Under the pieces are notes generated by a model. That model was not told the origin of the DNA. It made no database searches and saw only the letters and a list, made by a program, of their open reading frames with translations. Both the position numbers and the translations under genes were made by a program. Below are positions 8,601-52,369 of a stretch of 52,369 bases of DNA, one piece after another; position 1 is the stretch's first letter, and the number at the start of each line of letters is the position of its first letter. The DNA comes from an uncultured Pseudomonadales bacterium (GTDB taxonomy: Bacteria; Patescibacteriota; Microgenomatia; UBA1400; PJMF01), in contig CAYTIA010000006.1 in the NCBI GenBank assembly GCA_964437755.1, forward strand, positions 1 to 52,369. Reading direction: 5' to 3'.

Positions 8601-9760
8601 TTAATCTCTAACCATGATTCCGCAATTACTAATCCTTGAACTGAGTCAGCCAATTCTTGATATTTATCATAAAGCTCTTGCTCTGATACAGAAATTTCAG
8701 CCAAAAGCTTGTTTCTTCTTGACTCCTGTAACTGAATCCATGCTGAATCCTTACCCTTTGATTTAGCTAGTTGAGCTGATAACTGTAAAGCTAGTGGTCT
8801 TCGCAAATCTCCAAATCTATCCATAATCTTCAACGTTTCTTCACACTGATCATCAGATAATTCAGAGTACATTAAAATACCATATAGAAAATTTCTTGTT
8901 TTAATGGAGTTCTTTCTGGATTGAAGGAGGTTGATAATCTGCTCATGTAACCCCCTTATCTCTGGATATCTATAACCAACATCTATTTCTTCTTCTAGAT
9001 TTTTTTTGTACCATCTCTCTCTATAAAAACTTAAAATTTCTGTATAACCAATTAATAAACTCTGCACTGCATCTTCATTAGAAAAAACAGTTGGTTGACC
9101 TATAAGTTCATGAACATCAGTCCAGATCCTCTCCATTAAGCATAGAGGGCGTTCATATATTTCCAAATCTTGATCAAAAAACGTGTGTAGGATTTTTCTC
9201 TGTTTTGAAGGTCTCGCTTCTTCCCAACTTAACTCTTCAATATTACCCTCTATTTCATGTTTTTTTTGAAAATAAAAAAGTAAAAACCTTGCTGGAGCAT
9301 GAATTAACCTAACAATATCTGAAGGAGTTAATTCTGCCATTCTCTCACCCTCTTCAATTCTTAAATCTGGAGGAATCAGCGTTTTATCTGAATCTTCAGA
9401 CTTCCTTTCTGCAATCTTTCTTTGATAAAAAGCATTTGGATTTGTAAGAAGCTCTCTTTGTTCAGCTAAGTTTAACCCTAGAGTAAAATCATTATTAATT
9501 TCTGGATGAGCATCTGATAAAGGAACAACAATAGTTTTTTCTGGCTTTTCGACTACCACGAATCCTGCTTGATGCATTACCGCAGCCATCCCTGCAAATT
9601 GTTTTGGTACATCTAACTTTGGAGAAACAACTACAGTAGCTTCTTCTTCTCTAATTGGAGGTTTTCCATCTGCCGACCACAAATTGCCACCAAATTCACG
9701 AGCTATTTGCTCAGTTACAACTCCTTCTCTTATTGCTCGCTCAAGTCTTTGATCACTCAT
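5606..9760 (-). CDS. 1384-aa protein: amidoligase/COOH-NH2-ligase-like domain plus HEAT-like repeat solenoid
   Basis: GLEIE, TLELR, GLHIH and WEVRG motifs at about aa 389-495; recurring G-[GDN]-x-x-[AT] helix pairs about every 31-34 aa from about aa 650 to the C-terminus. Confidence 0.7.
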   Translation of the reverse strand: MSDQRLERAIREGVVTEQIAREFGGNLWSADGKPPIREEEATVVVSPKLDVPKQFAGMAAVMHQAGFVVVEKPEKTIVVPLSDAHPEINNDFTLGLNLAEQRELLTNPNAFYQRKIAERKSEDSDKTLIPPDLRIEEGERMAELTPSDIVRLIHAPARFLLFYFQKKHEIEGNIEELSWEEARPSKQRKILHTFFDQDLEIYERPLCLMERIWTDVHELIGQPTVFSNEDAVQSLLIGYTEILSFYRERWYKKNLEEEIDVGYRYPEIRGLHEQIINLLQSRKNSIKTRNFLYGILMYSELSDDQCEETLKIMDRFGDLRRPLALQLSAQLAKSKGKDSAWIQLQESRRNKLLAEISVSEQELYDKYQELADSVQGLVIAESWLEIKPRKVGLEIEYGDESRKTDCPGFMAGRDMGDTLELRKLDDDLIYGVDYVAQLGNLAMFFDRASPEGLHIHLDQGDHKKAPELPGIEVVVNNQTPIRSAVRVYTWEVRGLTIPRMDRFQRLDPINISNLITLYYHLSQKEHRKLLLTHPEAPLSWQQLVFGYLICETDTPEGRLAALMVLDNPISLSSFNMLEVSDMFSNVGMDEILESISNSFPESKLFEAKVVRGQLTTQLAIELSSKQFKDTDEEKDKYLWIIETFGGETAGNVLASDFVDRRVGLEVLPIIEKIGGDESASILLEVLSPSNQDSLAIAGVICKIGHIEAIKGLVSKLFNSNPFPESVQELILSFLENKIANDDKLRKKFTSTDTYTLMKLAGAYVDKMITGEARIIARRIFKIASSPSASIKLAAYLCEPTVEREEIAIFVESIGEYGDDNATAPLVENMCTGQYQNVSTVDVLTIARKVGGDRTALALLDLAEETSEVKMRLLKVDREEVLDIALTIGGPKTALLALNNLIENKHQYLSRKATILKLARKRGNSGIAKMLASNLDSLSETDEEVSRILSIISDIGNDEAAASLIKNQSDKGCSQEVLETVALIAGDESSAALIVALEKKAINPHDLENVYSIIQEHGGAKTSSRCLTAISTNVVDDKTKLRLWNIFKIVGDSRQCYYLTDLFIEGSISIVPPEEVLFFISRYGTRDSLLLLAERINDSHYSSEYLEEVINILLLNGDRLIFFVLLRKSDLIPINNELALVIFLQYLKVADYDDLYELATLFSQGLLRKIPLVLFLKLFSVDNLNGLESAPSCFARLISGISGNIFSEIETILIMNKIIELRLYRYSVISSALLGSIRERCFSDREFERVMAVVKYLPSDVIDELPLTFYRATHLTPAQKKLLLLQIENRGGENTFIQLAYSYLALVTDHENSGYVGSIPDLALALDVVERKGGRSAMQALESIYLQGRGISDDERVMIRNSYRSMLMRGVGDKKSTGGLMRKAK

Positions 9761-9768
9761 TTTCTTGA

Positions 9769-10461
9769 CTAATACCTTTCCTCAAATAACTTTATTTCAC
9801 CATTTTCAATTAATAAATATGAAGCATAACCATACATAATACAGCCAGAATTGGCATAGTGATTTTGATTGTCAATCTCAGCATAATGGGTATCAGCTCC
9901 AATTAACCACTTCTGGTTTTTTCTACTTAGCACTGCTTCCTTCATGAGCTCATTACTCTTTTTTGCAAAAGAAGATTTCTTCATTATTCCTGGAATAACT
10001 AGATATCCTATTTTTTCTAACAAATTCATTAATTTTCTTAAAAAGATAACAATCATTAGAGATTCTTGAGATAGCAATAACTCTCGAAATTTGCTTTCTA
10101 ACATCCCTCTTTTATTAATCAATAATTCGTACCCGTGGATAATTTCAAGTTCCTTGTTTCCCAAGTTAATTTGACACATTTTTCCAAAACCTTTACAAAA
10201 AAGTTTAGCTCTATCATCAATCATATTTAAACTATCATGATTTCCTAGCACATAGAATGTATTTTTTTCTTTTAAGAGTTTGAAAAGTTTTGACCATTTC
10301 GAGGTAAGAAATTGGTCAAATGTACAAAACCAGCTATCCCAGAAATCTCCATTAATAATTACTCTGTCTGCTCGAGCAATAATTGAATGTAAATACTGAT
10401 ACTTTTTTTGATCAAATTTATGAGTCAGATGGGTATCAGAAAATACTAAAATTCTCATCAT
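9769..10461 (-). CDS. Calcineurin-like metallophosphoesterase
   Basis: SDTH, NGDFWD, GNHD, IIHG, DTH and NSG motifs. Confidence 0.85.
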   Translation of the reverse strand: MMRILVFSDTHLTHKFDQKKYQYLHSIIARADRVIINGDFWDSWFCTFDQFLTSKWSKLFKLLKEKNTFYVLGNHDSLNMIDDRAKLFCKGFGKMCQINLGNKELEIIHGYELLINKRGMLESKFRELLLSQESLMIVIFLRKLMNLLEKIGYLVIPGIMKKSSFAKKSNELMKEAVLSRKNQKWLIGADTHYAEIDNQNHYANSGCIMYGYASYLLIENGEIKLFEERY

Positions 10462-10544
10462 TAATTAATTCTAAACTATTTCATTATCAAATAATTAGTG
10501 ATATTGTATATCTAGTAAACCAATACTCTCTAGCTTCGCTAATA

Positions 10545-11819
10545 ATGACGGAGTTATATCCCCCAAACATAAAAGAAATTCGCAAGAATCAGTTTATTTT
10601 CAAGGAAATTCCACTAAACAATGGATATTATGCTGTAATACTGTTACCCGATTCTGATCCGGGTAAATTATCAATCCCACAACTAACTAATTTTAATTTT
10701 CCTACAGTATCCGGATCTCTAGAAACAACCTTAATTCTAGGTCCAAAAGAAACAAGTAAAGCTAAAATTACCGGTGATTTTGTGGTTTTGGTTGTAATTA
10801 TGAATAAACAACATCAAGCAATAGCAGCAATTCCAGTTGTCCAGGATGGTTTGTCATCAGGAGAATCTGAAGCATATCAGCAAATATTTAAAAGTGTTCT
10901 TCATTCAGCTTGGGATATAAATTTAAGACCTTTTTTTGTTAAAAATCCGCAATTAACCGATTTTTTCTATTCACTTGATGCAGACTCACTCGCTTCAGCC
11001 ATTGCTAGAGACTTCTGGACAAATAATGGCAATTTATTACAAACAATCCTAAATGGTTATCTTGATTCTCTTGAATTAATCGGCAATAAGTGCGATCCTG
11101 ACAAAGTAATAAAAACTATTACTCAACTGCAGTCACAAATCGTTTATGCAAGAGCAATGCATTCAAGACAAATCTTGTCTGCTTTTCATAAATATGAACA
11201 GTGGAAACCAATCTGGGGTGATGCAATTATGGCTTTTTCAGTAATGCATTTTGCACGATCTTTGCAAGAAGAAAATCTTCGCCTAACCAGCTGTCATAGC
11301 GCAAGACCTACCGCTGATTGTTTTCAAGCCATTGAAACAAATATTTCAGGGCAAGGTTTGGTTAGTAATGCACTCACCGTTGACACAAATGCACGCCTTG
11401 AACAATTATTCTTAGATTTGCTTGAGCAGGGATTATTTGAAGATCCAGAAAAAGCACGAAGGTTTTATTTAGAGCATTTATATAGTTATAAACCAGGCGG
11501 TTTTTACGCAACAGTAGCTAACCCTGTTCCAAACATGAATATTGGATCTCATCAAATATTAGCCTTATATCAAAAATATGACCTTGAAGTATTATCATTA
11601 TCAAAAACACCAGGGGGTGACTGGCTAAAGAGTGTTAGCATTTCAGATGGAGCCACATTTGTCACTAGAGACCTAAAAAGAAAAGCTGCAACAGAAGAGT
11701 TAATCATAAAAAGAACAGACGAAGCCCATCAATCCCCCGAAGGTTTTATAAATCAAATACTTGCAGGTGGTGCAAGCGATGATTATTCACTCATAGAGGC
11801 AACTAGCATTCATTTGTAA
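10545..11819 (+). CDS. Hypothetical protein; C-terminal half weakly class I methyltransferase-like
   Basis: Long ORF; ATG 10545 avoids overlap with the divergent phosphoesterase; TVD and YKPGG segments. Confidence 0.55.
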   Translation: MTELYPPNIKEIRKNQFIFKEIPLNNGYYAVILLPDSDPGKLSIPQLTNFNFPTVSGSLETTLILGPKETSKAKITGDFVVLVVIMNKQHQAIAAIPVVQDGLSSGESEAYQQIFKSVLHSAWDINLRPFFVKNPQLTDFFYSLDADSLASAIARDFWTNNGNLLQTILNGYLDSLELIGNKCDPDKVIKTITQLQSQIVYARAMHSRQILSAFHKYEQWKPIWGDAIMAFSVMHFARSLQEENLRLTSCHSARPTADCFQAIETNISGQGLVSNALTVDTNARLEQLFLDLLEQGLFEDPEKARRFYLEHLYSYKPGGFYATVANPVPNMNIGSHQILALYQKYDLEVLSLSKTPGGDWLKSVSISDGATFVTRDLKRKAATEELIIKRTDEAHQSPEGFINQILAGGASDDYSLIEATSIHL

Positions 11820-20471: not shown

Positions 20472-21418
20472 TATATCTCTCCAAGTTGGTTAATAATTTG
20501 ATTTAAATTAATCACTCCTAATGGCACTTCGTCATTGGGATCATTCACAAATAACAAAAGAACTCTACCACGGGTTTTTGGACTCCAGATTTTACCCTCA
20601 CGAATAATTTCAGGAGATCCACCAAACTGTTTTTTAACCCACATGGCTGGACCGGCATCCCCAACTACGCCAACTACGGCTAGCTGCTCAGCAGGATTAA
20701 TAGCAATCATTTTCCTAAATTTATACCAAGGTTTCAACTCTGCGTGATTACTGTTCCAATCAGACAGATACATTGTCTGAACAGCAAAATAATACTTTTC
20801 CATTAAAACAGCTTTTTGTGTTAACTCACCATCTTGTGTAAACCAACCAAATGCTCCTCTGTTTGGCGCTATACCCGCCTCTTGATATGCGTCATGATCT
20901 TCAAGCTTATCTCCGGGGTACCGAACCAAGTGCTGCTCACCACCCATAATACCAATGGTGTGATTTAAACGCTTTCCTTCTAACTCCGCCTGAACCTCAA
21001 AACCAAGTAAGTCTGATAGCTGCTGTTCAAGATATAGTTCTTCTTCCTTTGGTAAATGCCCTACATCCATATTGACATAACCCACCATTTTACCGATGAT
21101 TTCCTCTAATTCTTGCTGAGTGATTTCTGTAAGAAGCTTATTTCGTTGTTTTTGTTCTAAAACTGAAAGATTCTGCTGAACTTGAGCCTCAACGGGTTGA
21201 GTAATAGCCAGATGAGCTGCTAAAGTAGCGGCTGTTGTAAACTGTTTAGCGAAATCTATTAGCTGAGCTTGAGAAGTGAATTTGTTATCAAGCCAATTAG
21301 CTACGTCAGCATTTTTTTCTCTTAAAGCCTCCTTTGCCATTTGATATCGATCTTGCAACGAAGATGAGACATCATAAAGTAAGTCAGATGGTGATTGGGC
21401 AGTTTTAGTTGGACTCAT
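20471..21418 (-). CDS. Hypothetical protein
   Basis: 315-aa ORF overlapping the gltX stop; globular C-terminal part (VVGDAGPA...KQFGGSPE). Confidence 0.75.
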   Translation of the reverse strand: MSPTKTAQSPSDLLYDVSSSLQDRYQMAKEALREKNADVANWLDNKFTSQAQLIDFAKQFTTAATLAAHLAITQPVEAQVQQNLSVLEQKQRNKLLTEITQQELEEIIGKMVGYVNMDVGHLPKEEELYLEQQLSDLLGFEVQAELEGKRLNHTIGIMGGEQHLVRYPGDKLEDHDAYQEAGIAPNRGAFGWFTQDGELTQKAVLMEKYYFAVQTMYLSDWNSNHAELKPWYKFRKMIAINPAEQLAVVGVVGDAGPAMWVKKQFGGSPEIIREGKIWSPKTRGRVLLLFVNDPNDEVPLGVINLNQIINQLGEI

Positions 21419-22952
21419 CTAACTTATTTTGATTAATAAACTCAACAGCCCTTTTAATTCTATTTAGGCTGTCTTGCCAACCCAGGGCAATCATAATTTC
21501 ATAGAGAGGAGGAGTAAACTTTCTAGCTGTTAAAGCAGATCTCATAGTCATAAAAACAATCTTGTGAGGTAATTGATGTTTGTCAGCAAGATCACGAACA
21601 GATTTTTCCCAACTACTAGAGTCAACTTCTCCTAAATTTTCAAAAGTACTTATAACATCAGATAAAACAGTTTGAATAACTTCTGCCGGTTGCTTCTGTA
21701 GCAAATCATCAAGATCATAATTAAGTTCATCCTCAAAAAATAACTCCATTAAATCATGAAATTCTAACAGTGTACGAGCACGGTCCTGAGCTAATTTCAA
21801 TGAACTTTTAAACAACTGTTGATTTTTTAAATGACACGATTGAAGCTGCTGAACTTTTTTAATCACCTCTTCATCCTCACCATTAGTCATTACCCAGTTT
21901 ATCCACTCAATGATTTGCTGATAAAGATCATCGAGAGATAACTCTCTCATATATTTGCCATTCAGCCAATCAAGTTTTTTCAGATCAAAGATAGGCCCAG
22001 TTATATTCATCTGCTCCCACTCAAATTTATTAACCATCTCATCTAATGAAAAAATTTCTTGATTTTCTGAAGGTTTCCAAGCTAAAAGAGCCAAAAAGTT
22101 TAACAAAGCTGATGATAGATATCCATGTTCACGATACCACCAAACTGATGTATTGCCCTTTCGCTTTGAAAGTTTGGATTTATCAGTATTGCGTAATGTT
22201 GGAGTGTGAATTAATTCTGGCATCTGCCAACCAAAATATTGATAAAGCAAAGCATGTTTAGGAGCACTTGGTAGCCACTCCTCACCTCTAACAATGTGCG
22301 AGATCTCCATTAAGTGATCATCAACCACTACAGCCAAATGATAGGTTGGATAACCATCCGACTTTAACAAAACTTGATCATCTATGGTGTTGGAGTCAAA
22401 CACTACTTTTCCCCTAAGTTTATCAAACACCTCGATAGTTTCATCATCGGGAACTTTAAGTCTAATCACCGCTTTTTCACCATTGGCCAGTCTTTGCTCA
22501 ACTTCTTGCTTGCTTAAGCTACGACAATGCCTATCATACTTTGGAGGAATTCCCGCCTGTCGCTGTTGGTCACGAACTTCCTCAAGTCTTTCTGGAGAAC
22601 AAAAACAGTAATAAGCTTTATCCATCTTGATCAATTCTTGAGCATATTTTTGGTAAAGAGAGAGTCTTTCTGACTGCCTATAGGGACCATGATCACCAGC
22701 AATGCCTGGACCTTCATCTGGAGTAATGTTTAGCCACGAAAACGCTTGATGGAGGACTTCTTCAGCTTCAGCAACAAAACGCTTCTGATCGGTATCCTCA
22801 ATTCTCATTATAAATTTACCATCATATCTTCGAGCAAAGACCCAATCGAACAATGCTTGAAAAGCTGTACCAACATGAGGAAATCCCGTTGGAGATGGAG
22901 CTATCCTTGTTCTAACTTTTCCTACTAGTGAGATATTTTTTTGTTTTGTCAT
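21405..22952 (-). CDS. gltX: Glutamyl-tRNA synthetase
   Basis: RIAPSPTG.PHVG, RIEDTD, VVDDH.M.ISH..RGEEW and KLSKR motifs. Confidence 0.97.
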   Translation of the reverse strand: MTKQKNISLVGKVRTRIAPSPTGFPHVGTAFQALFDWVFARRYDGKFIMRIEDTDQKRFVAEAEEVLHQAFSWLNITPDEGPGIAGDHGPYRQSERLSLYQKYAQELIKMDKAYYCFCSPERLEEVRDQQRQAGIPPKYDRHCRSLSKQEVEQRLANGEKAVIRLKVPDDETIEVFDKLRGKVVFDSNTIDDQVLLKSDGYPTYHLAVVVDDHLMEISHIVRGEEWLPSAPKHALLYQYFGWQMPELIHTPTLRNTDKSKLSKRKGNTSVWWYREHGYLSSALLNFLALLAWKPSENQEIFSLDEMVNKFEWEQMNITGPIFDLKKLDWLNGKYMRELSLDDLYQQIIEWINWVMTNGEDEEVIKKVQQLQSCHLKNQQLFKSSLKLAQDRARTLLEFHDLMELFFEDELNYDLDDLLQKQPAEVIQTVLSDVISTFENLGEVDSSSWEKSVRDLADKHQLPHKIVFMTMRSALTARKFTPPLYEIMIALGWQDSLNRIKRAVEFINQNKLDESN

Positions 22953-22964
22953 TTGTTAATCGAT

Positions 22965-24047
22965 TTACTCTAACACCAAATATTTTGAGTCTATGGCATG
23001 AACATATCCAAGAAAATCTTCATCGCCAGAAAAAACATAGATTGGTTGAAGATATGGCTGAGTTATAAAATCTTCATAATACCCCAAGACTATCTCTCGA
23101 ATAACAACTTTTTCAAGCTCAGAACCTGAGACAATATATCCTTCTCCTGATTGAAGTTCTTTCCAAGCTTGGGAAATAGGTTTTAATGGATAGGTATGAA
23201 CTGACTCATACTTTGCTGGCTGATAGTGATAATCTAACTGGACAATTCGATCATCATTTTCTAATGCTCCTGAAATTACCGCACTCACAATTCCTGTTTT
23301 TCCTTCTGGGGTGTACATCTCAAGAAAATTATCAACTGGAACTCTATTGATATCCACACGAACAAAGTTTGCATCTGATAAAGATACTGCTGGTAACAGC
23401 TCTCCTGCTAACACCCTAACATAAGAGACTTCACCAGAAGCAGTTGCCACGTCAGCAGGTAGAGAATCGCTTCTTCTTAAATAAGATTTAACTGCCTGAA
23501 CTGCATCATGCTTATCAGGAAGTTTTTTTACCTTAATTAGTTCTGGTCTTGATTGATAGTCAGTAATTAGCGAAAAGTTATAATTGATTAAATTAATCTC
23601 AAATATTGACTCGAGAGGGCTATATTTCATCCAGCGATAGTTGCTGGCATCAAGCAACTCAGGCTCATCAGTAAAACCATATCTATTAGCTATCTTTCTT
23701 GCTTTTTCATCTGCCAATAAACTTGGAGTGGGAATTTCCATCTCAAAAACCTTCGCTCTATCTGGGAACTCTGGCAAACGATTCCGAGCCGTTTCAAGCG
23801 TATATTCTTGAGTACGCTCTTGTATATCTTGTGCAGGAAAAACTATAGCTGGCAACCTTCCAAAACCCACAGTTGGAGGAGGAGGGGGAGGGGGGTTCAT
23901 GGCTTTGTAGTAGTTTACAGCTGCGATAAAAAGCATTCTCAATACTAAATAGGTCACTGTGCCTATTCCAATAAAAAGAAGTGCTTTTCTTCCATAGGAA
24001 GTAGCATCAGATAAAGTTAAACCCGCATTGTTTTTTTGAGTGCTCAT
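22965..24047 (-). CDS. Membrane-anchored hypothetical protein with a poly-Pro linker
   Basis: N-terminal TM helix, PPPPPPP stretch, beta-rich extracytoplasmic domain. Confidence 0.75.
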   Translation of the reverse strand: MSTQKNNAGLTLSDATSYGRKALLFIGIGTVTYLVLRMLFIAAVNYYKAMNPPPPPPPTVGFGRLPAIVFPAQDIQERTQEYTLETARNRLPEFPDRAKVFEMEIPTPSLLADEKARKIANRYGFTDEPELLDASNYRWMKYSPLESIFEINLINYNFSLITDYQSRPELIKVKKLPDKHDAVQAVKSYLRRSDSLPADVATASGEVSYVRVLAGELLPAVSLSDANFVRVDINRVPVDNFLEMYTPEGKTGIVSAVISGALENDDRIVQLDYHYQPAKYESVHTYPLKPISQAWKELQSGEGYIVSGSELEKVVIREIVLGYYEDFITQPYLQPIYVFSGDEDFLGYVHAIDSKYLVLE

Positions 24048-24114: not shown

Positions 24115-25065
24115 TTAACCCGGAAAAGCTCCATCTTTCCAGATAACATTATTCTGTACCCACTCAATAAGTCCCAGAGTATCCTTATATCGATCTTGAG
24201 AACCCATCACAACAATTAAAACTTGGTGTCCGTCTTCTTCCCAAAGAGTAACCAATACTTGTTGTGCTAACAAAGTTGTTCCTGTTTTAATACCCTTAAC
24301 TTGATCATACTGATATAAGAGTTCATTGGTATTAAATAAATGATATTGATAACCTAAATTAAGATCGGTGATATCCAGATTTTTTATTGCAACAAACTCT
24401 TTTAAAACTGGATCCTTGATAACTTCACGAGCCAAGAGTGATAAATCCCAAGCAGAAGTCAACTGTGTATAGTCGTCGATACCTGTCGGATTGGCATATG
24501 TAGTCTGAAAAAGAGATAATTCTTTAGCTTTCTGATTCATGCGGTCGATAAAACCCTGGTATCCAGTTGGATAGTTCTCAGCTAGTACTTGAGCTGCATC
24601 ATTTCCAGAAAAAACTAGAGATGAGGCTAAAAGATCTTTGATCGTCACTTGAGTTCCCCAGAGAAAACCAACCTTATTGCCTAACACAAATCGACCGGAA
24701 TCAGTTGAAAGTGTATCGTCTAAATTGTAAGCTTCTCGAGCTACCAACGCAGTCATTAACTTAACCGTTGATGCTGGAAACTGTGACACATACATATTTC
24801 TAGATTGGATAATTGAGGCCGATTGAGGATCAACGATTAAATATGACTTAGCAGAAATTTGTGAAAAATAATCTTCAGCATCTAGATCCACCTCATTGTT
24901 AGTATGTATAACTGGATAAGGACTAGGATCAATTAGAGTAATATTTTGTAACAAAATGCTTGATTCAGCCGAGTCAGCAATGACATGAGATCCTTGAAAC
25001 AAAATTAAAACTGCAATTAACACAAAAGCGGTAATTTGGTCTGGACGCAGGCGAATTTTTATCAC
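24115..25065 (-). CDS. D-alanyl-D-alanine carboxypeptidase (peptidase S11)
   Basis: PASTVK (SxxK), SGN and KTG motifs; signal/TM segment. Confidence 0.93.
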   Translation of the reverse strand: MIKIRLRPDQITAFVLIAVLILFQGSHVIADSAESSILLQNITLIDPSPYPVIHTNNEVDLDAEDYFSQISAKSYLIVDPQSASIIQSRNMYVSQFPASTVKLMTALVAREAYNLDDTLSTDSGRFVLGNKVGFLWGTQVTIKDLLASSLVFSGNDAAQVLAENYPTGYQGFIDRMNQKAKELSLFQTTYANPTGIDDYTQLTSAWDLSLLAREVIKDPVLKEFVAIKNLDITDLNLGYQYHLFNTNELLYQYDQVKGIKTGTTLLAQQVLVTLWEEDGHQVLIVVMGSQDRYKDTLGLIEWVQNNVIWKDGAFPG

Positions 25066-25084
25066 TTTTAAAATTGCTGTTAAA

Positions 25085-26947
25085 CTAACTAAAAGATTCT
25101 ACTGTCGGCTTTTCTAAACGAATAAAATCTTGAGTACTCATTAAAATTGACCTATCTCTTTTCCCTACGTTAAAGGCTATCTCCTTTTGAGCTAATAATG
25201 ATTCATCAAGATAGGTTTTTATCTTTAAAACTGAACCAAAAGGTGGTATTGATCCGATTTGCAAACTCGTTTTCGCCTCAACGGTTTCTTTTGAAGCCAT
25301 AGCTATTTTTGAAGCTCCGACAAACTTTTGGAGCTTTTCGAGATTTGCTCTTTTATCTCCTGGCAACACCAATAAGGCATATTCACCATCTATATCAACC
25401 ACCAAAGCCTTTGCTGACTGTTCAAGAGTAGTTCCCCTTACCTCGGCCGCTTCTTGACTTGTTGTAACGGGTTGATGTACGAAATACCTAAAATTTGCCC
25501 CCAGATCTTTGAGTTTATTGATTATTTGATCATGAACAGAAAGACTGTCTTGATCAGTCACTCCAATACCCAATTCTGCCAGTTGTGCAGAATCAACCTC
25601 ATTGGGAGCATCCATAACCGCCGTTCTGCCTGAAGACGAGGTAGGAAAGGCGATCGTTTCTTTAATTGATTGTTCATTGGCCAACAACATTGCTAAACGA
25701 TCAAAGCCTAGTGCTATACCTCCATGAGGTGGAGTTCCAAGCTGGAAAGCCTCAAGAATATGGCCAATACTGTCTTCGGTTTCTTGATCTGAATAGCCCA
25801 TAATCTTAAAGGTAGATCTAAGAACATCGGGGCGATGAGCTCTTATACTTCCTCCACCAACCTCATAACCATTGCAGACTAAATCATATTGAGCAGTTTT
25901 AATCTGTTCTAAATTTTTTTGGTTGAGATGATCCTCTAAATACTCTTCTTGAGGGGTGCTGAATGGATTATGAGTAAAGGTCCAACCACTTTTACCATCT
26001 TGAACCTCAGCTGCATCTGTCTTATCAACCTTTTTGAAGAAAGGAAAATCAACTACCCAAACAAAAGCTAACACCCCACTCTTTTTCTCTTCTGGAGTAC
26101 GCAAATCAAATTTATCTGCACCATATTTATTAATTGCCTCTTGATAAGGCACAACTGGAAAAGTTTCTTGTTGAAGCACTCCACCAACTTTTTTAACCGC
26201 ATGCTTCACCATCTCTTCAACAAACGCCATCACTTCCTGTTGAGAAACAAAACTCATTTCTAAGTCAAGTTGGGTAAACTCAAATCCTCGATCTGCTCGA
26301 AGGTCTTCATCTCGAATACATTTGGCAAACTGAAAATATCTTTCAAAACCAGCTGTCATAAGCAGCTGTTTATACTGTTGTGGGCTTTGCGGCAAAGCAT
26401 AAAATTTACCTGGTTGAAAACGGGAAGGTACCAAGAAGTCTCTTGCTCCTTCTTTAGTTGACTTAGTTAAAAGTGGAGTTTCAATTTCTACGAAGTCCTT
26501 TTCAAGAAGCTTCTCGCGAAGAGCCTGCCCAAGCTCTGATCTCATTTTAAGATTGTGCTGTAGCCTTGGTCTTCTTAGATCTAGATAACGATACTTTAAT
26601 CGAGGTACTTCATTTATCTCCAAACCATCTCCATCTAAAGAAATTGGTAACTCAGTACAATCGTTGAGTAATTTGTACTGCTCAACCTCAAGCTCCACCT
26701 TGCCTGAATCTAAATCAGGATTAATATAGCGCTCATCTCTTTCTTTCACCTGCCCCGTAACTTCTATCACCGACTCGATTCTCAGTTCTGCCAATTTTTT
26801 AAAACCAACAATCTGGACCACTCCAGATCTATCTCTAAGATCAATAAAAGTAATCTTGCCATGATCACGCTTACTTTCCACCCAGCCTTGGAGTGTTACC
26901 TGTTGCCCTATTTTGGTTGAGATATCTCTTGAAAGTGTTCTTTGCAT
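25085..26947 (-). CDS. aspS: Aspartyl-tRNA synthetase lacking the GAD insertion, fused to a C-terminal YbaK/ProX-family domain
   Basis: RDHG..FIDLRD, YRYLDLRR, LPQSPQ.YKQ, RDEDLRADR and PPHGGIALGFDRL; the last about 150 aa carry SAKAL, GSIPPFG and FNVG YbaK-family motifs. Confidence 0.93.
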   Translation of the reverse strand: MQRTLSRDISTKIGQQVTLQGWVESKRDHGKITFIDLRDRSGVVQIVGFKKLAELRIESVIEVTGQVKERDERYINPDLDSGKVELEVEQYKLLNDCTELPISLDGDGLEINEVPRLKYRYLDLRRPRLQHNLKMRSELGQALREKLLEKDFVEIETPLLTKSTKEGARDFLVPSRFQPGKFYALPQSPQQYKQLLMTAGFERYFQFAKCIRDEDLRADRGFEFTQLDLEMSFVSQQEVMAFVEEMVKHAVKKVGGVLQQETFPVVPYQEAINKYGADKFDLRTPEEKKSGVLAFVWVVDFPFFKKVDKTDAAEVQDGKSGWTFTHNPFSTPQEEYLEDHLNQKNLEQIKTAQYDLVCNGYEVGGGSIRAHRPDVLRSTFKIMGYSDQETEDSIGHILEAFQLGTPPHGGIALGFDRLAMLLANEQSIKETIAFPTSSSGRTAVMDAPNEVDSAQLAELGIGVTDQDSLSVHDQIINKLKDLGANFRYFVHQPVTTSQEAAEVRGTTLEQSAKALVVDIDGEYALLVLPGDKRANLEKLQKFVGASKIAMASKETVEAKTSLQIGSIPPFGSVLKIKTYLDESLLAQKEIAFNVGKRDRSILMSTQDFIRLEKPTVESFS

Positions 26948-26999
26948 ATGGGGATATTATAGTAGAGAAGATCAGAAAAAAAATAGAGGATTTGTATAG

Positions 27000-27028
27000 T
27001 TGCACTCCCTTGTTATTTATGCTTTAAT
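27000..27028 (+). promoter_or_regulatory. Sigma70-like promoter with extended -10
   Basis: TTGCAC (27000-27005), 17 bp, then TGc-TTTAAT (27020-27028). Confidence 0.6.
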
Positions 27029-27036
27029 TTTCAAGA

Positions 27037-27117
27037 ATGAAAAATTGGCAACACCAACCTACTATTTGCAAGTTTAAGCTTGTTATTTACAAACAAGTGC
27101 CTATAGCGGTGGTGTAA
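27037..27117 (+). CDS. Putative leader peptide (26 aa) MKNWQHQPTICKFKLVIYKQVPIAVV
   Basis: ATG 8 nt after the -10 box; the last codons and stop overlap the antiterminator 5' strand. Confidence 0.45.
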   Translation: MKNWQHQPTICKFKLVIYKQVPIAVV

Positions 27118-29593: not shown

Positions 29594-31018
29594 ATGACTA
29601 ATAACTTTTTTATTACTACCACTCTGCCATATGTCAATGCTGAACCACATATTGGCTTCGGACTTGAAATAGTCGAGGCTGATGTTATCGCCCGCTATCA
29701 AAAAAGTCTTGGAAAAGAAATAATTTTTAATACTGGCACTGATGAACATGGCCAAAAAATCTATCAAAAAGCAGTAGAAACCAATCAAGATCCTCAAGAT
29801 TATTGCAATCAATACGCAGCCAAGTTTCAGGACTTAAAAAAGCTATTAAATCTAGATTACACTCATTTTATCCGTACTACTAATGCCAATCATCAGCAAG
29901 CTGCTCAAGCGTTTTGGTTAAAATCAAAAAAATCTAGAGATATTTACAAAGCTAAATATCAAGTAAAATATTGTGTTGGTTGTGAGCTTGAAAAAACTGA
30001 AAGTGAACTGATAGATGGAAAATGTCCTATTCATCCTCATCTTGATCTTGAAGAAAGAGATGAAGAAAACTACTTTTTTAGGTTCTCAAAATATCAAAAA
30101 CTGTTATTAGAGTTTTTAGAAAAAAATCCAGACTTCGTCCAGCCAGAATCAAAGATGAAGGAGGCAATAGCTTTCGTCAAGTCTGGTTTAAAAGATTTTA
30201 GTATCTCCAGATTAAAAAGTAAGATGCCTTGGGGCATTCCAGTTCCAGATGATGATAAACATGTGATGTACGTCTGGTTTGACGCGTTGGTTAACTATGT
30301 ATCTACTCTTGGATGGCCAACAAACTCCCAAGCCTTCAATCAATATTGGCCAGCTGTTCAAGTAGCCGGAAAAGATAATCTAAGACAACAAGCCATTATG
30401 TGGCAAGCAATGCTGATGTCTGCAAACTTACCTCCATCAAAAAAAATATTAATCAATGGTTTTATCAGTATTAACGGCCAAAAGATGAGTAAATCACTAG
30501 GCAACGTTATCTCTCCCGAAGAGATGGTGGCAAGATATGGTATCGACGCCACCAGATTTCTACTGATTTCACTAGGCACATTTAACGAAGATATGGATGT
30601 TAGCTGGGAAAGACTAGATGAAAATTATACCGCTAACCTCGCCAACGGAATAGGCAACTTATGTTCAAGAGTTGCCAAGATGTCAGCTGATGAAAAAATA
30701 GTTTTTTCTGAAAAGAAATCAGAAAAACACGATGAAGTTCTAGATAAGTATCATCAACTAATGGATCAGTACGAACTCTCAAAATCTCTAGAACTAATTA
30801 TCGATCTGATTAAAAAAACTGACTTATTTTTAAGTCAAAATGAGCCTTGGAAAAAATCCGGAGAAGAGAAAGTTAAAATACTGCTTTCTGCCATTTCCTA
30901 TATCAGAGTAATTAGCAAGATGCTTTCACCATTTACTCCAGAATTATCAATGACAGTTCTAGATAGTTTTCAAGAGCAAATTAAGCCTTTGGCACCTTTA
31001 TTTCCAAGGCTAAGTTAA
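29594..31018 (+). CDS. metG: Methionyl-tRNA synthetase (short form)
   Basis: PYVNAEPHIG, GTDEHGQKI, YVWFDAL and KMSKSLGN motifs. Confidence 0.97.
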   Translation: MTNNFFITTTLPYVNAEPHIGFGLEIVEADVIARYQKSLGKEIIFNTGTDEHGQKIYQKAVETNQDPQDYCNQYAAKFQDLKKLLNLDYTHFIRTTNANHQQAAQAFWLKSKKSRDIYKAKYQVKYCVGCELEKTESELIDGKCPIHPHLDLEERDEENYFFRFSKYQKLLLEFLEKNPDFVQPESKMKEAIAFVKSGLKDFSISRLKSKMPWGIPVPDDDKHVMYVWFDALVNYVSTLGWPTNSQAFNQYWPAVQVAGKDNLRQQAIMWQAMLMSANLPPSKKILINGFISINGQKMSKSLGNVISPEEMVARYGIDATRFLLISLGTFNEDMDVSWERLDENYTANLANGIGNLCSRVAKMSADEKIVFSEKKSEKHDEVLDKYHQLMDQYELSKSLELIIDLIKKTDLFLSQNEPWKKSGEEKVKILLSAISYIRVISKMLSPFTPELSMTVLDSFQEQIKPLAPLFPRLS

Positions 31019-33386: not shown

Positions 33387-35000
33387 ATGCTTAAAGACTT
33401 CTTTATAAAAATTGATAAGTTCTTAGATCGCCACACAGGTTTTTTATTGTGCCTGCTGTTACTAATTATCCTCAGAGCCCCAAATTTTTTTGATCCCTAT
33501 TGGTATGGTGATGAAGCAATTTATTTAACCATTGGTCAAAGTATTCGAGCCGGAAAGCAACTCTATGCAGAAATCGTTGATCACAAAACACCAATAATTT
33601 ACTATTTAGCAGCCGTTCCCAATCAGTTTTGGTTTAGAGTTCTCTTAACTGGGTGGATGGTAACGACAACAACTTTTTTTTATGATTTATCTAGAAAAAT
33701 ATTTAATCACAAAAATATTAGTGTTATTGGTACTTTCATTTTTGTTTTACTAACAACACTTCCTTGGCTAGAAGGACACATTCCAAATGGAGAGTTGTTT
33801 GTAATGGGTTTTGTGATAACTGGCCTGTGGATACTCGCAAAGTCACAATATCTTTCTCAAGTACTTGATGATCAACCAATTATTAAATCATTTCATAAAA
33901 AGCAAATCGCTTTTTTAATAATATCTGGATTTTTTTATGGATTGGCGTTTTTAACAAAAGTTCCAGCAATTCTAGATTTTGCAGGATTATTACTCTTAAG
34001 TTGGTTTTTCACAAATTCTAAAGTTCTTAATCAAAGCAATAGCACTAGAAAGAGAAAAATATTTTTCACTAAAAAGAATTTCTTAGCACTTTTTCAATTT
34101 ATTCCCCAATGGATAGTTTTCTTTATTGGGCTGTTAATCCCAGTTATCATCTCGATAATATATTTTGTATCAATTGGAGCAGGCAGTGATTATTTAGAGT
34201 TTGGTTTGTTATACAACCTTCACTATACACAAACCTGGACTCATGATTTTGGATCAGCCTTCGTTAACTCTCTATTCACTCTACCTGTTAAAACGCTGAT
34301 TTTAGCAATATTTATACTACTCTTAACCATTCTTAAGAAGGTATCTCTTAAAGCTAAGTTTTTTACAGGGTGGTATTTACTAACTCTTTACTCTGTTTTA
34401 CTTTCAAATCGACCATACCCACATTACTTTCTTCAAGCAGTGCCACCTTTAGTATTGATGGTTACTTATTTATTAAAACTAGCAATTGATAAACAAAAAA
34501 AAGTTTATGAATTTGTATCTTCTTTCCTACTTTTTATTGTATGTGGCACTCTAACTACACTGATCTTATTTTCACTAAACTTTGGAGTTTATTCAACAAG
34601 AAAATATTATGGTACATTTTTCAAATATGTTAAAGGTAATCTAAATCAAGAGGAGTACTTTCAATCGTTTAACTATTTAATGAGTGATAACTATCAAGTG
34701 GCTAATTATCTCAAATCTCAAAATGAGAAAAAGTTGTTTATTTGGGGTAACAATGCACTACTATACGCACTTAGTGAAACCGTTCCCTCTTCTAGATATA
34801 CCGTAGCTTTTCACATTCTTGATATGAATGCCTTTGATGAAACAATAATGCAGGTAAAAGATGAGGAACCAAATTATATAGTCTTAATGAACAATGCTCC
34901 AACTGAGTTTCCTGAGTTCTATCATTACTTAAGAAGAAATTATGTACCGATCTATTCGTATACTAATATGACACTTTATAAAAGAGTAAATATTCAATAA
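33387..35000 (+). CDS. GT-C (ArnT/PMT-like) glycosyltransferase
   Basis: WYGDEAIY and DHKTP motifs; many TM helices; soluble C-terminal domain. Confidence 0.8.
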   Translation: MLKDFFIKIDKFLDRHTGFLLCLLLLIILRAPNFFDPYWYGDEAIYLTIGQSIRAGKQLYAEIVDHKTPIIYYLAAVPNQFWFRVLLTGWMVTTTTFFYDLSRKIFNHKNISVIGTFIFVLLTTLPWLEGHIPNGELFVMGFVITGLWILAKSQYLSQVLDDQPIIKSFHKKQIAFLIISGFFYGLAFLTKVPAILDFAGLLLLSWFFTNSKVLNQSNSTRKRKIFFTKKNFLALFQFIPQWIVFFIGLLIPVIISIIYFVSIGAGSDYLEFGLLYNLHYTQTWTHDFGSAFVNSLFTLPVKTLILAIFILLLTILKKVSLKAKFFTGWYLLTLYSVLLSNRPYPHYFLQAVPPLVLMVTYLLKLAIDKQKKVYEFVSSFLLFIVCGTLTTLILFSLNFGVYSTRKYYGTFFKYVKGNLNQEEYFQSFNYLMSDNYQVANYLKSQNEKKLFIWGNNALLYALSETVPSSRYTVAFHILDMNAFDETIMQVKDEEPNYIVLMNNAPTEFPEFYHYLRRNYVPIYSYTNMTLYKRVNIQ

Positions 35001-52252: not shown

Positions 52253-52284
52253 ATTCTGAATATATTTTTCACCATAATTAATTG

Positions 52285-52369
52285 CGGAAGGGGTGGGACT
52301 CGAACCCACGAAGCCCGTGAGGGCGCCGGTTTTCGAAACCGGTGCAATAGACCGCTATGCGACCCTTCC
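52285..52369 (-). tRNA. tRNA-Ser (anticodon CGA)
   Basis: Acceptor stem GGAAGGG/CCCTTCC, anticodon arm CCGGT-TTCGAAA-ACCGG, long variable arm, GGTTCGAGTCC T arm, G discriminator; CCA not encoded. Confidence 0.95.

What the first reader, a model, noticed from the sequence alone, without database searches (positions are those of the whole stretch)
25085..25545. AspRS fused to a C-terminal YbaK/ProX-family editing domain
After the class II motif 3 and normal C-terminus (TSSSGRTAVMDAP..V...QL.ELGI), the ORF continues in frame for about 150 aa with the INS-superfamily signature: HQPVTTSQEAA, SAKAL (catalytic Lys), GSIPPFG and FNVG. INS domains are normally inserted in ProRS or free-standing (YbaK, ProXp-ala/x/y/z) and deacylate mischarged tRNAs (established). 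A fusion to AspRS is not an arrangement I know as characterised. It implies either a new editing substrate on tRNA-Asp/Asn or a trans-editing domain using AspRS as a scaffold.
Basis: partly seen in the sequence, partly recalled or inferred. Interest (0 to 1): 0.72.

Follow-up and report, generated by a model that had tools for sequence, protein, structure and literature searches.

The report
AspRS fused to YeaK-like deacylase
This gene from an uncultured ultra-small (CPR) bacterium joins the enzyme that loads aspartate onto tRNA to a complete, apparently active tRNA proofreading module, a combination common in CPR bacteria and DPANN archaea that I could not find described in the literature I could search.

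Summary
ORF 25085..26947 (-) is one uninterrupted 620-aa reading frame. It holds an OB-fold anticodon-binding domain, a class II AspRS catalytic core and a C-terminal Pfam tRNA_edit domain (E 9e-29). Contigs from independent metagenome runs cross the junction with no differences.

Refinements:
- The appended domain is closest to E. coli YeaK (ProXp-ST1, a Ser/Thr-tRNA deacylase): 36% identity, 102 bits. YbaK scores 46 bits and ProXp-ala 22 bits.
- The AspRS is bacterial-type but lacks the GAD insertion.
- The catalytic Lys513 and the G565-xxx-P569 loop are invariant in 112 fused homologues.
- The fusion is widespread in Microgenomates-type CPR bacteria. A second group in DPANN archaea has it on a GAD-containing AspRS that is not sister to the CPR one, so it probably arose at least twice.
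- The domain was deleted repeatedly in close relatives whose AspRS is otherwise intact.
- No residue distinguishes fused domains from free-standing ones.

Best reading (about 0.5): a tethered trans-editing deacylase that keeps its family's specificity. Main rival (about 0.3): proofreading aimed at tRNA-Asp/Asn. I found no paper describing this architecture. I rate it a new variant of a known kind.

The parts
25085..26947 (-). Whole ORF, 620 aa plus TAG stop: AspRS fused to a YeaK-like deacylase
   Evidence: ORF list. Pfam three-domain architecture. NCBIfam PRK00476 aspartate--tRNA ligase, 596.5 bits against a cutoff of 443. Independent contigs are identical across it.
26666..26899 (-). N-terminal OB-fold anticodon-binding domain (residues 17-94)
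   Evidence: Pfam PF01336, 4.3e-16. It aligns to the E. coli, mycobacterial and P. aeruginosa AspRS N-domains. 'RDHG' has His where the discriminating E. coli enzyme has Leu.
25640..26605 (-). Class II AspRS catalytic domain (residues 115-436), motifs 1-3
   Evidence: Pfam PF00152, 3.4e-109. The QSPQQYKQ segment, D213/E214/D215, R369, H371, H408 and R417 are invariant in alignment A1, which includes relatives without the C-terminal domain. Foldseek matches bacterial AspRS structures at 36-41% identity.
26069..26095 (-). Position where bacterial AspRS normally carries the ~130-aa GAD insertion (residues ~285-293); absent here
   Evidence: No PF02938 hit. NCBIfam AspRS models match in two stretches. 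Against the GAD-containing P0180, query residues 11-285 align to 13-294 and 293-461 align to 425-582.
25538..25639 (-). Bacterial-type AspRS C-terminal extension and short linker (residues 437-470)
   Evidence: AF2 pLDDT is 61-75 here, against about 85-95 on either side. The spacing between the end of the core and the first strand of the deacylase domain is 23-31 residues in 112 CPR fusions and 23-30 in 110 DPANN fusions.
25088..25537 (-). C-terminal YeaK/ProXp-ST1-like aminoacyl-tRNA deacylase domain (residues 471-620)
   Evidence: Pfam tRNA_edit, 9.2e-29. 36% identity, 102 bits, E 2e-33 to E. coli YeaK over its full length, against 45.8 bits to E. coli YbaK. Best solved structure is 3op6 at 4e-18. 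AF2 pLDDT is 85-94.
25409..25411 (-). Codon AAG for Lys513, the INS-superfamily catalytic lysine (in SAKAL)
   Evidence: Read directly. Invariant in 112 fusions, in 7 DPANN fusions and in 112 free-standing relatives. Aligns to Lys52 of YeaK.
25241..25255 (-). G565-S-I-P-P569, the GXXXP loop of the deacylase active site
   Evidence: Read directly. G565, P568, P569 and G571 are invariant in 112 fusions. The role of the loop is described in PMC11286415.
21405..25065 (-). Context: downstream co-directional genes conserved in relatives. They are a Peptidase_S11 carboxypeptidase (24115-25065), a 360-aa hypothetical protein (22965-24047) and GluRS (21405-22952).
   Evidence: ORFs and Pfam. The same gene order is found in relatives L001, L002 and L003, whose AspRS lacks the deacylase domain.

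Best explanation
The gene encodes a bifunctional protein. The first 460 or so residues are a GAD-less, bacterial-type aspartyl-tRNA synthetase that charges tRNA-Asp, and possibly tRNA-Asn. Residues 471-620 are a complete, catalytically competent YeaK/ProXp-ST1-type aminoacyl-tRNA deacylase, joined by a linker of roughly 10 residues.

I think the deacylase most likely works as it does when free-standing. It hydrolyses mischarged aminoacyl-tRNAs after synthetases release them. By family precedent these are Ser- or Thr-tRNAs made in error by several synthetases. Lys513 and the G565-xxx-P569 loop position the ester for hydrolysis.

On this reading, AspRS is a stable, dimeric, tRNA-binding housekeeping scaffold. 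It guarantees co-expression and may limit promiscuity. It is not the source of the errors.

Shown: the architecture, its conservation, the family placement, the intact catalytic residues and the repeated loss of the domain. Inferred: that the domain is active, its amino-acid specificity, and that it acts in trans.
For: 1. The domain is a whole free-standing-type module, 36% identical over its full length to E. coli YeaK, which RefSeq annotates as a mischarged aminoacyl-tRNA deacylase. It is much weaker against YbaK, ProRS-INS and ProXp-ala. The Ser/Thr-tRNA activity and broad tRNA range of ProXp-ST1 are taken from the review PMC11295145.
2. Lys513, G565, P568, P569, H491, S497, G571 and F592 are invariant in 112 fusions, so the active site is under purifying selection.
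3. No residue is shared by CPR and DPANN fused domains yet rare in 112 free-standing relatives. Every strongly conserved position is family-wide. There is therefore no sign of re-specialisation.
4. The AspRS aspartate/ATP pocket residues are canonical and invariant whether or not the domain is present. Published work found that AspRS made no misacylated tRNA (PMC6523644).
5. Close relatives (72-78% identical core, same synteny) have cleanly lost the domain. Two still end in '..SARDQK' or '..SAHDQK', a remnant of its first helix. These short forms are nested among fused forms and were monophyletic in only 1.5% of bootstraps. AspRS therefore does not depend on the domain.
6. A free-standing close relative overlaps by 4 nt a free-standing ThrRS editing-domain gene, a Ser-tRNA-Thr deacylase family. 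That places this family in a trans-editing context.
7. There is an analogy in T. brucei, where housing an INS-type deacylase in the synthetase complex limits promiscuous proofreading (PMC11286415).
Against: 1. AspRS is the only synthetase partner seen among the 150 best representatives.
2. The same fusion occurs on two AspRS backbones that are not sister groups: GAD-less in CPR and GAD-containing in DPANN. A clade joining them had 0% bootstrap support. A third, free-standing relative sits two genes from an archaeal-type ND-AspRS. Such partner specificity is not expected of a mere expression scaffold.
3. The linker is short and its length varies little. That would suit a fixed, docked geometry.
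4. No enzymatic data exist. Specificity is extrapolated from a 36%-identical homologue. E. coli YeaK is itself a fairly distant member of this set, ranking 98th of 122 by distance to the CPR domains.
5. [quoted passage not shown]
6. Whether genomes that lost the domain carry a free copy elsewhere was not tested.
Confidence: 0.5

Rival explanations
1. Editing dedicated to AspRS. The appended domain proofreads what this AspRS itself produces, or anything wrongly attached to tRNA-Asp/tRNA-Asn. It would act in cis by acceptor-end translocation, or by recapture using the AspRS anticodon-binding domain for tRNA selection. This would make it the first editing site of a class IIb synthetase.
For: AspRS is the only synthetase fused to this domain family among the top 150 representatives. 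The fusion is found on two non-sister AspRS backbones, in CPR bacteria and DPANN archaea. The nearest relatives of each group of fused domains are different free-standing proteins, not each other. A free-standing relative lies in the same directon as an archaeal-type ND-AspRS. The linker is short and narrowly distributed in length. ProXp-ST1 has little tRNA specificity of its own, so tethering it to an anticodon reader would add specificity.
Against: The AspRS amino-acid pocket is canonical and does not differ between fused forms and forms that lost the domain. The domain has been lost repeatedly without visible compensation. There are no fused-specific active-site residues. Published assays found no misacylated products from bacterial AspRSs. 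I could not obtain the interdomain geometry because no model coordinates or PAE were available, and pTM was only 0.69.
Confidence: 0.3
2. A non-hydrolytic or handover role. The domain binds the aminoacylated acceptor end, for example Asp-tRNA-Asn, and protects or channels it to GatCAB. Alternatively it structurally replaces the missing GAD domain.
For: The CPR enzymes lack GAD. The invariant His in 'RDHG' matches AspRSs whose PDB entries are named Asp/Asn ligases (mycobacteria, P. aeruginosa), whereas the discriminating E. coli enzyme has Leu. This hints at a non-discriminating enzyme. NCBIfam lists a known AspRS-GatC fusion family, PRK12820, so AspRS C-terminal fusions to partners in the indirect pathway do exist.
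Against: The catalytic Lys and the GXXXP loop are strictly invariant, as expected for a hydrolase. DPANN fusions keep GAD and still carry the domain. Most GAD-less CPR AspRSs have no such domain. The meaning of the His signature rests on my memory of mutagenesis work that I could not retrieve.
Confidence: 0.07
3. A different amino-acid specificity. The domain is an active deacylase, but its targets are not Ser or Thr. Candidates are Ala, Cys, alpha-aminobutyrate or other non-protein amino acids taken up from a host or community.
For: Identity to the only characterised relative, YeaK, is just 36%. YeaK differs at three otherwise family-conserved positions (C36, S40, S114 against S, A, G). INS-superfamily members with similar active sites have diverse specificities. 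One free relative carries the JGI automatic name 'Ala-tRNA(Pro) deacylase'.
Against: YeaK is clearly the nearest characterised homologue. The operon with a ThrRS editing domain points towards Ser/Thr. The JGI name is an automated label.
Confidence: 0.12
4. An artefact: an assembly chimera, a missed stop or frameshift, or a decaying pseudo-domain.
For: None found.
Against: Contigs from four independent runs are identical across the junction. There are 112 fused homologues with 49% median identity in the domain and invariant catalytic residues.
Confidence: 0.01

Closest known systems
E. coli YeaK (ProXp-ST1), a free-standing Ser/Thr-tRNA trans-editing deacylase
   Same: It is the nearest characterised homologue of residues 463-620: 36% identity over the full length, E 2e-33. 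It has the same catalytic Lys, GxxPPF loop and FNxG motif.
   Different: YeaK is a 167-aa single-domain protein. Here the module is covalently joined to AspRS. YeaK deviates at three positions that are conserved in this set, and it is not among the closest free-standing relatives. The activity of the fused domain is untested.
ProXp-ala-ProRS fusions of protists (Plasmodium, Trypanosoma, Leishmania)
   Same: An INS-superfamily trans-editing module is appended to a class II synthetase that lacks an internal editing domain.
   Different: In protists the partner is ProRS, the enzyme that makes the error (Ala-tRNA-Pro). The module is N-terminal and of the ProXp-ala family. Here the partner is AspRS, which has no known editing need. 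The module is C-terminal and YeaK-like, and ProXp-ala (5vxb) scores only 21.7 bits.
INS editing domain of bacterial ProRS
   Same: The same superfamily fold and Lys/GXXXP chemistry.
   Different: INS is inserted between motifs 2 and 3 of ProRS and edits Ala-tRNA-Pro in cis. Here the domain is a terminal appendage. The weak match (30-40 bits to ProRS) shows it does not derive from INS.
T. brucei MCP3 (ProXp-7) in the multi-synthetase complex
   Same: An INS-type deacylase is physically associated with synthetases, and AspRS is a member of that complex. The association is proposed to limit promiscuous proofreading.
   Different: That association is non-covalent, in a eukaryote, and involves a different INS cluster. 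It was shown to deacylate Ala-tRNA-Pro.
AspRS-GatC bifunctional proteins (NCBIfam PRK12820)
   Same: A bacterial-type AspRS is extended by a tRNA-pathway partner.
   Different: The appended part is amidotransferase subunit C, not a deacylase. The window protein scores 400.8 bits against a cutoff of 1379, so it is not a member.

Membership tests
Bacterial-type aspartate--tRNA ligase (NCBIfam PRK00476 / TIGR00459) | Score above the curated equivalog cutoff | tested here: met
   596.5 bits against 443, and 529.8 bits against 373.85.
Bacterial-type aspartate--tRNA ligase (NCBIfam PRK00476 / TIGR00459) | OB-fold anticodon-binding domain plus class II core with Asp-binding QSPQ/K/D/E/R/H residues | tested here: met
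   Pfam PF01336 and PF00152. The residues are invariant in A1. Foldseek matches AspRS structures.
Bacterial-type aspartate--tRNA ligase (NCBIfam PRK00476 / TIGR00459) | GAD insertion domain, used in the literature to separate bacterial-type from archaeal-type AspRS (PMC4206432) | tested here: not met
   No PF02938 hit. The models match in two stretches. There is a gap of about 130 aa relative to P0180. Other CPR AspRSs show the same.
Non-discriminating AspRS (Asp/Asn ligase) | Charges tRNA-Asn as well as tRNA-Asp; the genome has GatCAB and lacks AsnRS | tested here: inconclusive
   The invariant His29 in 'RDHG' matches enzymes whose PDB entries are named Asp/Asn ligases, whereas E. coli has Leu. 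The diagnostic value of this residue is recalled from memory. GatCAB and AsnRS are not in the 52-kb window.
INS superfamily / Pfam tRNA_edit (PF04073) | Score above the Pfam gathering cutoff | tested here: met
   100.5 bits against 25.5, covering the full profile 1-123.
INS superfamily / Pfam tRNA_edit (PF04073) | Conserved catalytic lysine and GXXXP loop (PMC11286415) | tested here: met
   K513 and G565-SIP-P569 are invariant in 112 fusions and family-wide.
INS superfamily / Pfam tRNA_edit (PF04073) | YbaK-like fold | tested here: inconclusive
   Sequence matches to solved members 3op6, 1wdv, 1dbu and 2cx5. The AF2 domain has pLDDT 85-94 with an alternating strand/helix pattern. The fold search on the whole model returned only AspRS chains, so the domain fold was not compared on its own.
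ProXp-ST1 (YeaK) Ser/Thr-tRNA deacylases | Closer to YeaK than to the other characterised INS families | tested here: met
   YeaK 102 bits. E. coli YbaK 45.8 bits. ProX 2cx5 41.8 bits, ProRS INS 30.3 bits, ProXp-ala 21.7 bits.
ProXp-ST1 (YeaK) Ser/Thr-tRNA deacylases | Distinct from ProXp-ST2, ProXp-8 and ProXp-9 | not tested
   No reference sequences for these clusters were available. NCBIfam has no YeaK-specific model: YeaK itself hits only TIGR00011, below its cutoff.
ProXp-ST1 (YeaK) Ser/Thr-tRNA deacylases | Hydrolyses Ser- and Thr-tRNAs with broad tRNA range | not testable with these tools
   This needs deacylation assays.
ProXp-ST1 (YeaK) Ser/Thr-tRNA deacylases | Free-standing single-domain protein | tested here: not met
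   It is fused in frame to AspRS.
YbaK Cys-tRNA(Pro) deacylase (TIGR00011 / PRK10670) | Score above the equivalog cutoff | tested here: not met
   70.5-72.4 bits against 153.25, and 30.9-34.9 bits against 243.

The most novel reading that the evidence does not exclude
The same deacylase family has been captured independently by AspRS in two unrelated radiations of ultra-small symbionts, CPR bacteria and DPANN archaea. The reason would be that AspRS in these organisms makes, or tRNA-Asp/Asn receives, a specific mischarged product that must be cleared on the enzyme. That would be the first proofreading site of a class IIb synthetase and would reveal an unrecognised error source in aspartate/asparagine decoding.
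Probability: 0.22. Interest if true: 0.85.

Novelty: new variant of a known kind. Interest (0 to 1): 0.6.

Why it matters
AspRS is regarded as a synthetase that needs no editing. INS-superfamily deacylases are described as free-standing proteins or as partners of ProRS. A conserved AspRS-deacylase fusion, probably recurrent, in hundreds of CPR and DPANN lineages has two possible meanings. It may extend the range of synthetase-editor architectures, showing how genome-reduced symbionts package quality control. Or it may point to an unknown mischarging problem on tRNA-Asp/Asn. It also gives experimenters a natural tethered form of ProXp-ST1, a family with few studied members, and natural domain-loss variants for comparison. 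The GAD-less bacterial-type AspRS of CPR bacteria is a second feature that does not fit the usual bacterial/archaeal classification of AspRS.

Tried and rejected
- Single-sequence AlphaFold2 of the whole protein gave an unusable model (pLDDT 32). The run with alignment A1 was good (pLDDT 86.8, pTM 0.69). No coordinates or PAE were available, so the position of the deacylase relative to the synthetic site could not be measured.
- Foldseek on the whole model returned only AspRS/AsnRS chains. It gave no independent fold check for the C-terminal domain.
The single-protein scan that replaced it uses exact peptide words, found only 30 loci and under-samples the fusion.
- Two bootstrap scripts timed out. 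They were redone with faster distance code. The NJ tree of the 150-aa domain is star-like and cannot by itself prove independent fusions.
- I first took the AspRS near the free-standing P0126 on L036 for the GAD-less bacterial type. It is an archaeal-type ND-AspRS, 27% identical.
- Liu et al. 2015 (ProXp-ST1/ST2) and Kuzmishin Nagy et al. 2020 are not held in the library. Their content is cited through the review PMC11295145.
- The search for 3OP6 found no paper. The YeaK search was swamped by unrelated words.
- YbaK proper and ProXp-ala were considered and rejected on score.
- An assembly artefact was rejected.
- The ND-AspRS signature was left inconclusive.
Full report
**1. The observation**

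ORF 25085..26947 on the minus strand is a single 620-aa frame from ATG to TAG. The stated span 25085-25545 is residues 468-620 plus the stop codon.

Pfam finds three domains:
- tRNA_anti-codon at 17-94;
- tRNA-synt_2 at 115-436 (3e-109);
- tRNA_edit PF04073 at 491-611 (9.2e-29, full profile length).

NCBIfam calls the protein a bacterial-type aspartate--tRNA ligase above the curated cutoff (596.5 bits against 443).

To test it I laid Logan contigs from four independent sludge-metagenome runs on 24900-27100. There were no substitutions, indels or joints, and two contigs span the junction.

**2. What the AspRS part is**

[quoted passage not shown] The AF2 model built with a 70-sequence alignment has mean pLDDT 86.8 and pTM 0.69. 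It matches bacterial AspRS structures at 36-41% identity, including the P. aeruginosa non-discriminating enzyme.

The protein lacks the GAD insertion domain:
- There is no PF02938 hit.
- The AspRS models match in two stretches.
- Against a GAD-containing homologue, about 130 residues are missing between residues 285 and 293.

This seems to be general in CPR bacteria. AspRSs from Woykebacteria, Saccharibacteria, Parcubacteria and Gottesmanbacteria are about 458 aa, bacterial-type by NCBIfam, with neither GAD nor a C-terminal domain. The literature uses GAD as the marker of bacterial-type AspRS (PMC4206432).

The invariant His29 in 'RDHG' matches enzymes whose PDB entries are named Asp/Asn ligases, whereas the discriminating E. 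coli enzyme has Leu. This hints at a non-discriminating enzyme. The diagnostic value of that residue is from my memory, and the window contains no GatCAB or AsnRS gene to check. I leave this inconclusive.

**3. What the appended domain is**

It is a whole free-standing-type module, including the N-terminal helix (residues 471-481).

| Comparison | Score |
|---|---|
| E. coli YeaK (ProXp-ST1; RefSeq: 'mischarged aminoacyl-tRNA deacylase') | 102 bits, 36% identity over full length, E 2e-33 |
| 3op6 (uncharacterised 152-aa protein) | 69 bits |
| ProX 1wdv | 46 bits |
| YbaK 1dbu | 46 bits |
| E. coli YbaK | 45.8 bits |
| ProX 2cx5 | 42 bits |
| ProRS INS | 30 bits |
| ProXp-ala 5vxb | 22 bits |

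The YbaK equivalog model TIGR00011 is matched well below its cutoff (70.5 bits against 153.25).

So the domain belongs to the INS superfamily, and its nearest characterised relative is ProXp-ST1. According to the review PMC11295145, ProXp-ST1 hydrolyses Ser- and Thr-tRNAs on many tRNA bodies. I could not compare it with ProXp-ST2, ProXp-8 or ProXp-9 for lack of reference sequences. NCBIfam has no YeaK-specific model.

**4. Conservation and signs of activity**

Of the 120 best database homologues, 112 have the same three-domain architecture, down to 55% identity. Source names include Patescibacteria, Woesebacteria, Beckwithbacteria and Dojkabacteria.

Median identity to the query is 67% in the core and 49% in the appended domain. 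Even so, H491, S497, K513, G565, P568, P569, G571 and F592 are invariant. K513 and G565-xxx-P569 are the catalytic lysine and GXXXP loop that define INS-superfamily hydrolases (PMC11286415). The domain is therefore under purifying selection on its active site.

**5. Distribution: two backbones and repeated loss**

An exhaustive profile-free search with the domain alone found 3540 representatives at E <= 1e-3. Most are free-standing proteins of 150-170 aa at 35-45% identity. Among the best 150, every multi-domain synthetase partner is AspRS. The other long hits are tandem repeats of the domain, single cases with Redoxin or GmrSD_N, and unannotated N-terminal extensions.

One hit led to a second large group: more than 100 clusters of 733-764-aa proteins named Candidatus Woesearchaeota or Nanoarchaeota. 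These have a bacterial-type AspRS that retains GAD, plus the same C-terminal domain.

In a neighbour-joining tree of the AspRS core (445 columns, 200 bootstraps):
- the DPANN group is a clade (95.5%);
- it groups with ordinary GAD-bearing bacterial enzymes (82.5%);
- the Microgenomates-type CPR group is a separate clade (86.5%);
- a clade joining the two fused groups never appears (0%).

By mean distance, the nearest relatives of the CPR domains are the free-standing proteins P0124 and P0126. The nearest relatives of the DPANN domains are other free-standing proteins, P0148 and P0159. The two fused groups are not each other's nearest relatives. The domain tree itself is star-like. I therefore take two independent fusions as probable, not proven.

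Both groups contain close relatives without the domain. In the CPR group, the 467-493-aa forms are 72-78% identical in the core. In the three loci fetched (L001-L003) they keep the synteny AspRS, Peptidase_S11, hypothetical, GluRS and have no deacylase gene next door. Two of them end in '..SARDQK' or '..SAHDQK', a remnant of the first helix of the lost domain. The short forms are nested among fused forms and are monophyletic in only 1.5% of bootstraps. The domain has therefore been deleted several times.

**6. How it most likely works**

Several results favour a tethered trans-editing factor that keeps its family's ancestral job:
- No residue is shared by CPR and DPANN fused domains yet rare in 112 free relatives. 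All strongly conserved positions are family-wide.
- The AspRS aspartate/ATP pocket residues are canonical and identical with or without the domain.
- Published assays found that bacterial AspRSs made no misacylated tRNA (PMC6523644).
- Repeated loss shows that AspRS does not need the domain.
- A free-standing close relative (P0131) overlaps by 4 nt a free-standing ThrRS editing-domain gene. The two look like an operon of trans-editing factors.

On this reading AspRS supplies co-expression, dimerisation and general tRNA affinity. As proposed for the T. brucei deacylase MCP3 in the multi-synthetase complex, it may also restrain a promiscuous hydrolase.

Other results count against this and favour AspRS-directed editing:
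- The partner is strikingly specific. AspRS is the only synthetase partner, on two non-sister backbones.
- A free relative lies two genes from an archaeal-type ND-AspRS.
- The linker is short and narrowly distributed: 23-31 residues from the end of the core to the first strand in CPR, and 23-30 in DPANN. A simple end-to-end gene fusion would give similar numbers.

My weights:

| Reading | Weight |
|---|---|
| Tethered trans-editor | ~0.5 |
| AspRS/tRNA-Asp/Asn-directed editing | ~0.3 |
| Active deacylase with a different amino-acid specificity | ~0.12 |
| Non-hydrolytic or handover role | ~0.07 |
| Artefact | ~0.01 |

That the domain is a functional deacylase fused to a functional AspRS I hold at about 0.9.

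**7. Comparison with what is known, and novelty**

Known covalent INS arrangements are:
- the INS insertion in bacterial ProRS;
- ProXp-ala fused to the N-terminus of protist ProRS;
- plant ProXp-ala with an extra C-terminal domain;
- MCP3 with its N-terminal domain.

Apart from the INS domain itself, the 2024 review calls the superfamily members single-domain proteins.

Full-text searches found no description of an AspRS fusion. The term combinations were:
- YbaK with aspartyl-tRNA synthetase and fusion;
- INS superfamily, ProXp and AspRS;
- YbaK with DPANN;
- YbaK with Patescibacteria;
- AspRS with YbaK, editing domain and C-terminal.

Surveys of synthetase domain architectures were also checked. 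The library does not include most subscription papers, so absence is not proof. Databases already hold hundreds of these proteins, annotated as 'aspartate--tRNA ligase' or 'amino acid--tRNA ligase-related protein'.

I rate it a new variant of a known kind. The catalytic domains are familiar. The unreported parts are an INS-type editor on a synthetase other than ProRS, its probable recurrence in CPR and DPANN, and its pairing with a GAD-less AspRS.

**8. Limits**

- No enzymology is available.
- No whole-genome context is available for the window organism.
- Interdomain geometry could not be measured.
- The phylogenies are neighbour-joining only.
- Specificity is extrapolated from a 36%-identical homologue that is itself a peripheral member of this set.

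Noticed in passing
window 26069-26095 (-); L008, L010, L012, L015: CPR AspRSs are bacterial-type by NCBIfam yet lack the GAD insertion (about 458 aa). GAD is the domain normally used to tell bacterial-type from archaeal-type AspRS. This appears to be a clade-wide trait, independent of the deacylase fusion.
   Followed up: partly
P0180, P0274-P0392: Woesearchaeota/Nanoarchaeota (DPANN archaea) carry a bacterial-type, GAD-containing AspRS with the same C-terminal tRNA_edit domain, in more than 100 clusters. Some close relatives of 589-595 aa have lost the domain.
   Followed up: partly
L037 5522-6004 and 6001-6474; L038 2808-3290 and 3287-3760: A free-standing ThrRS editing-domain gene (PF08915) overlaps by 4 nt a free-standing YeaK-like gene that is 43% identical to the window domain. 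They look like an operon of two trans-editing factors.
   Followed up: no
L036 1939-3330 and 6001-6477: A free-standing YeaK-like gene (P0126, 46% identical to the window domain) lies two genes downstream of an archaeal-type non-discriminating AspRS (PRK05159, 476 bits). The contig has bacterial genes (RecO, RuvX, ScpAB).
   Followed up: partly
P0121 (448 aa), P0129 (491 aa), P0138 (303 aa): These proteins consist of three (or two) tandem tRNA_edit domains. P0121 is the top-scoring representative hit to the window domain (E 9e-51).
   Followed up: no
P0139 (499 aa): The N-terminal half of AspRS (up to profile position 195 of 308, so no motif 3) is joined directly to a tRNA_edit domain. It could be a truncated paralogue or an assembly artefact.
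   Followed up: no
L006, L030, P0049: Contigs carrying CPR-type fused AspRS genes are labelled 'Pseudomonadales', 'Gammaproteobacteria' and 'Vitreimonas sp.' in their records. These MAGs are probably mis-binned or mislabelled.
   Followed up: no
window 29594-31018 (+), 21405-22952 (-), 52284-52369 (-): The window also encodes a short MetRS (474 aa) and a GluRS. The GluRS lies three genes downstream of AspRS in a conserved arrangement. A tRNA-Ser(CGA) runs to the last base of the window.
   Followed up: no
window 5606-9760 (-), 10383-11819 (+), 33387-35000 (+), 50519-51985 (+): Several large ORFs are unannotated. The 478-, 537- and 488-aa ORFs have no Pfam hit at E <= 1e-4. The 1384-aa ORF was not examined.
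   Followed up: no
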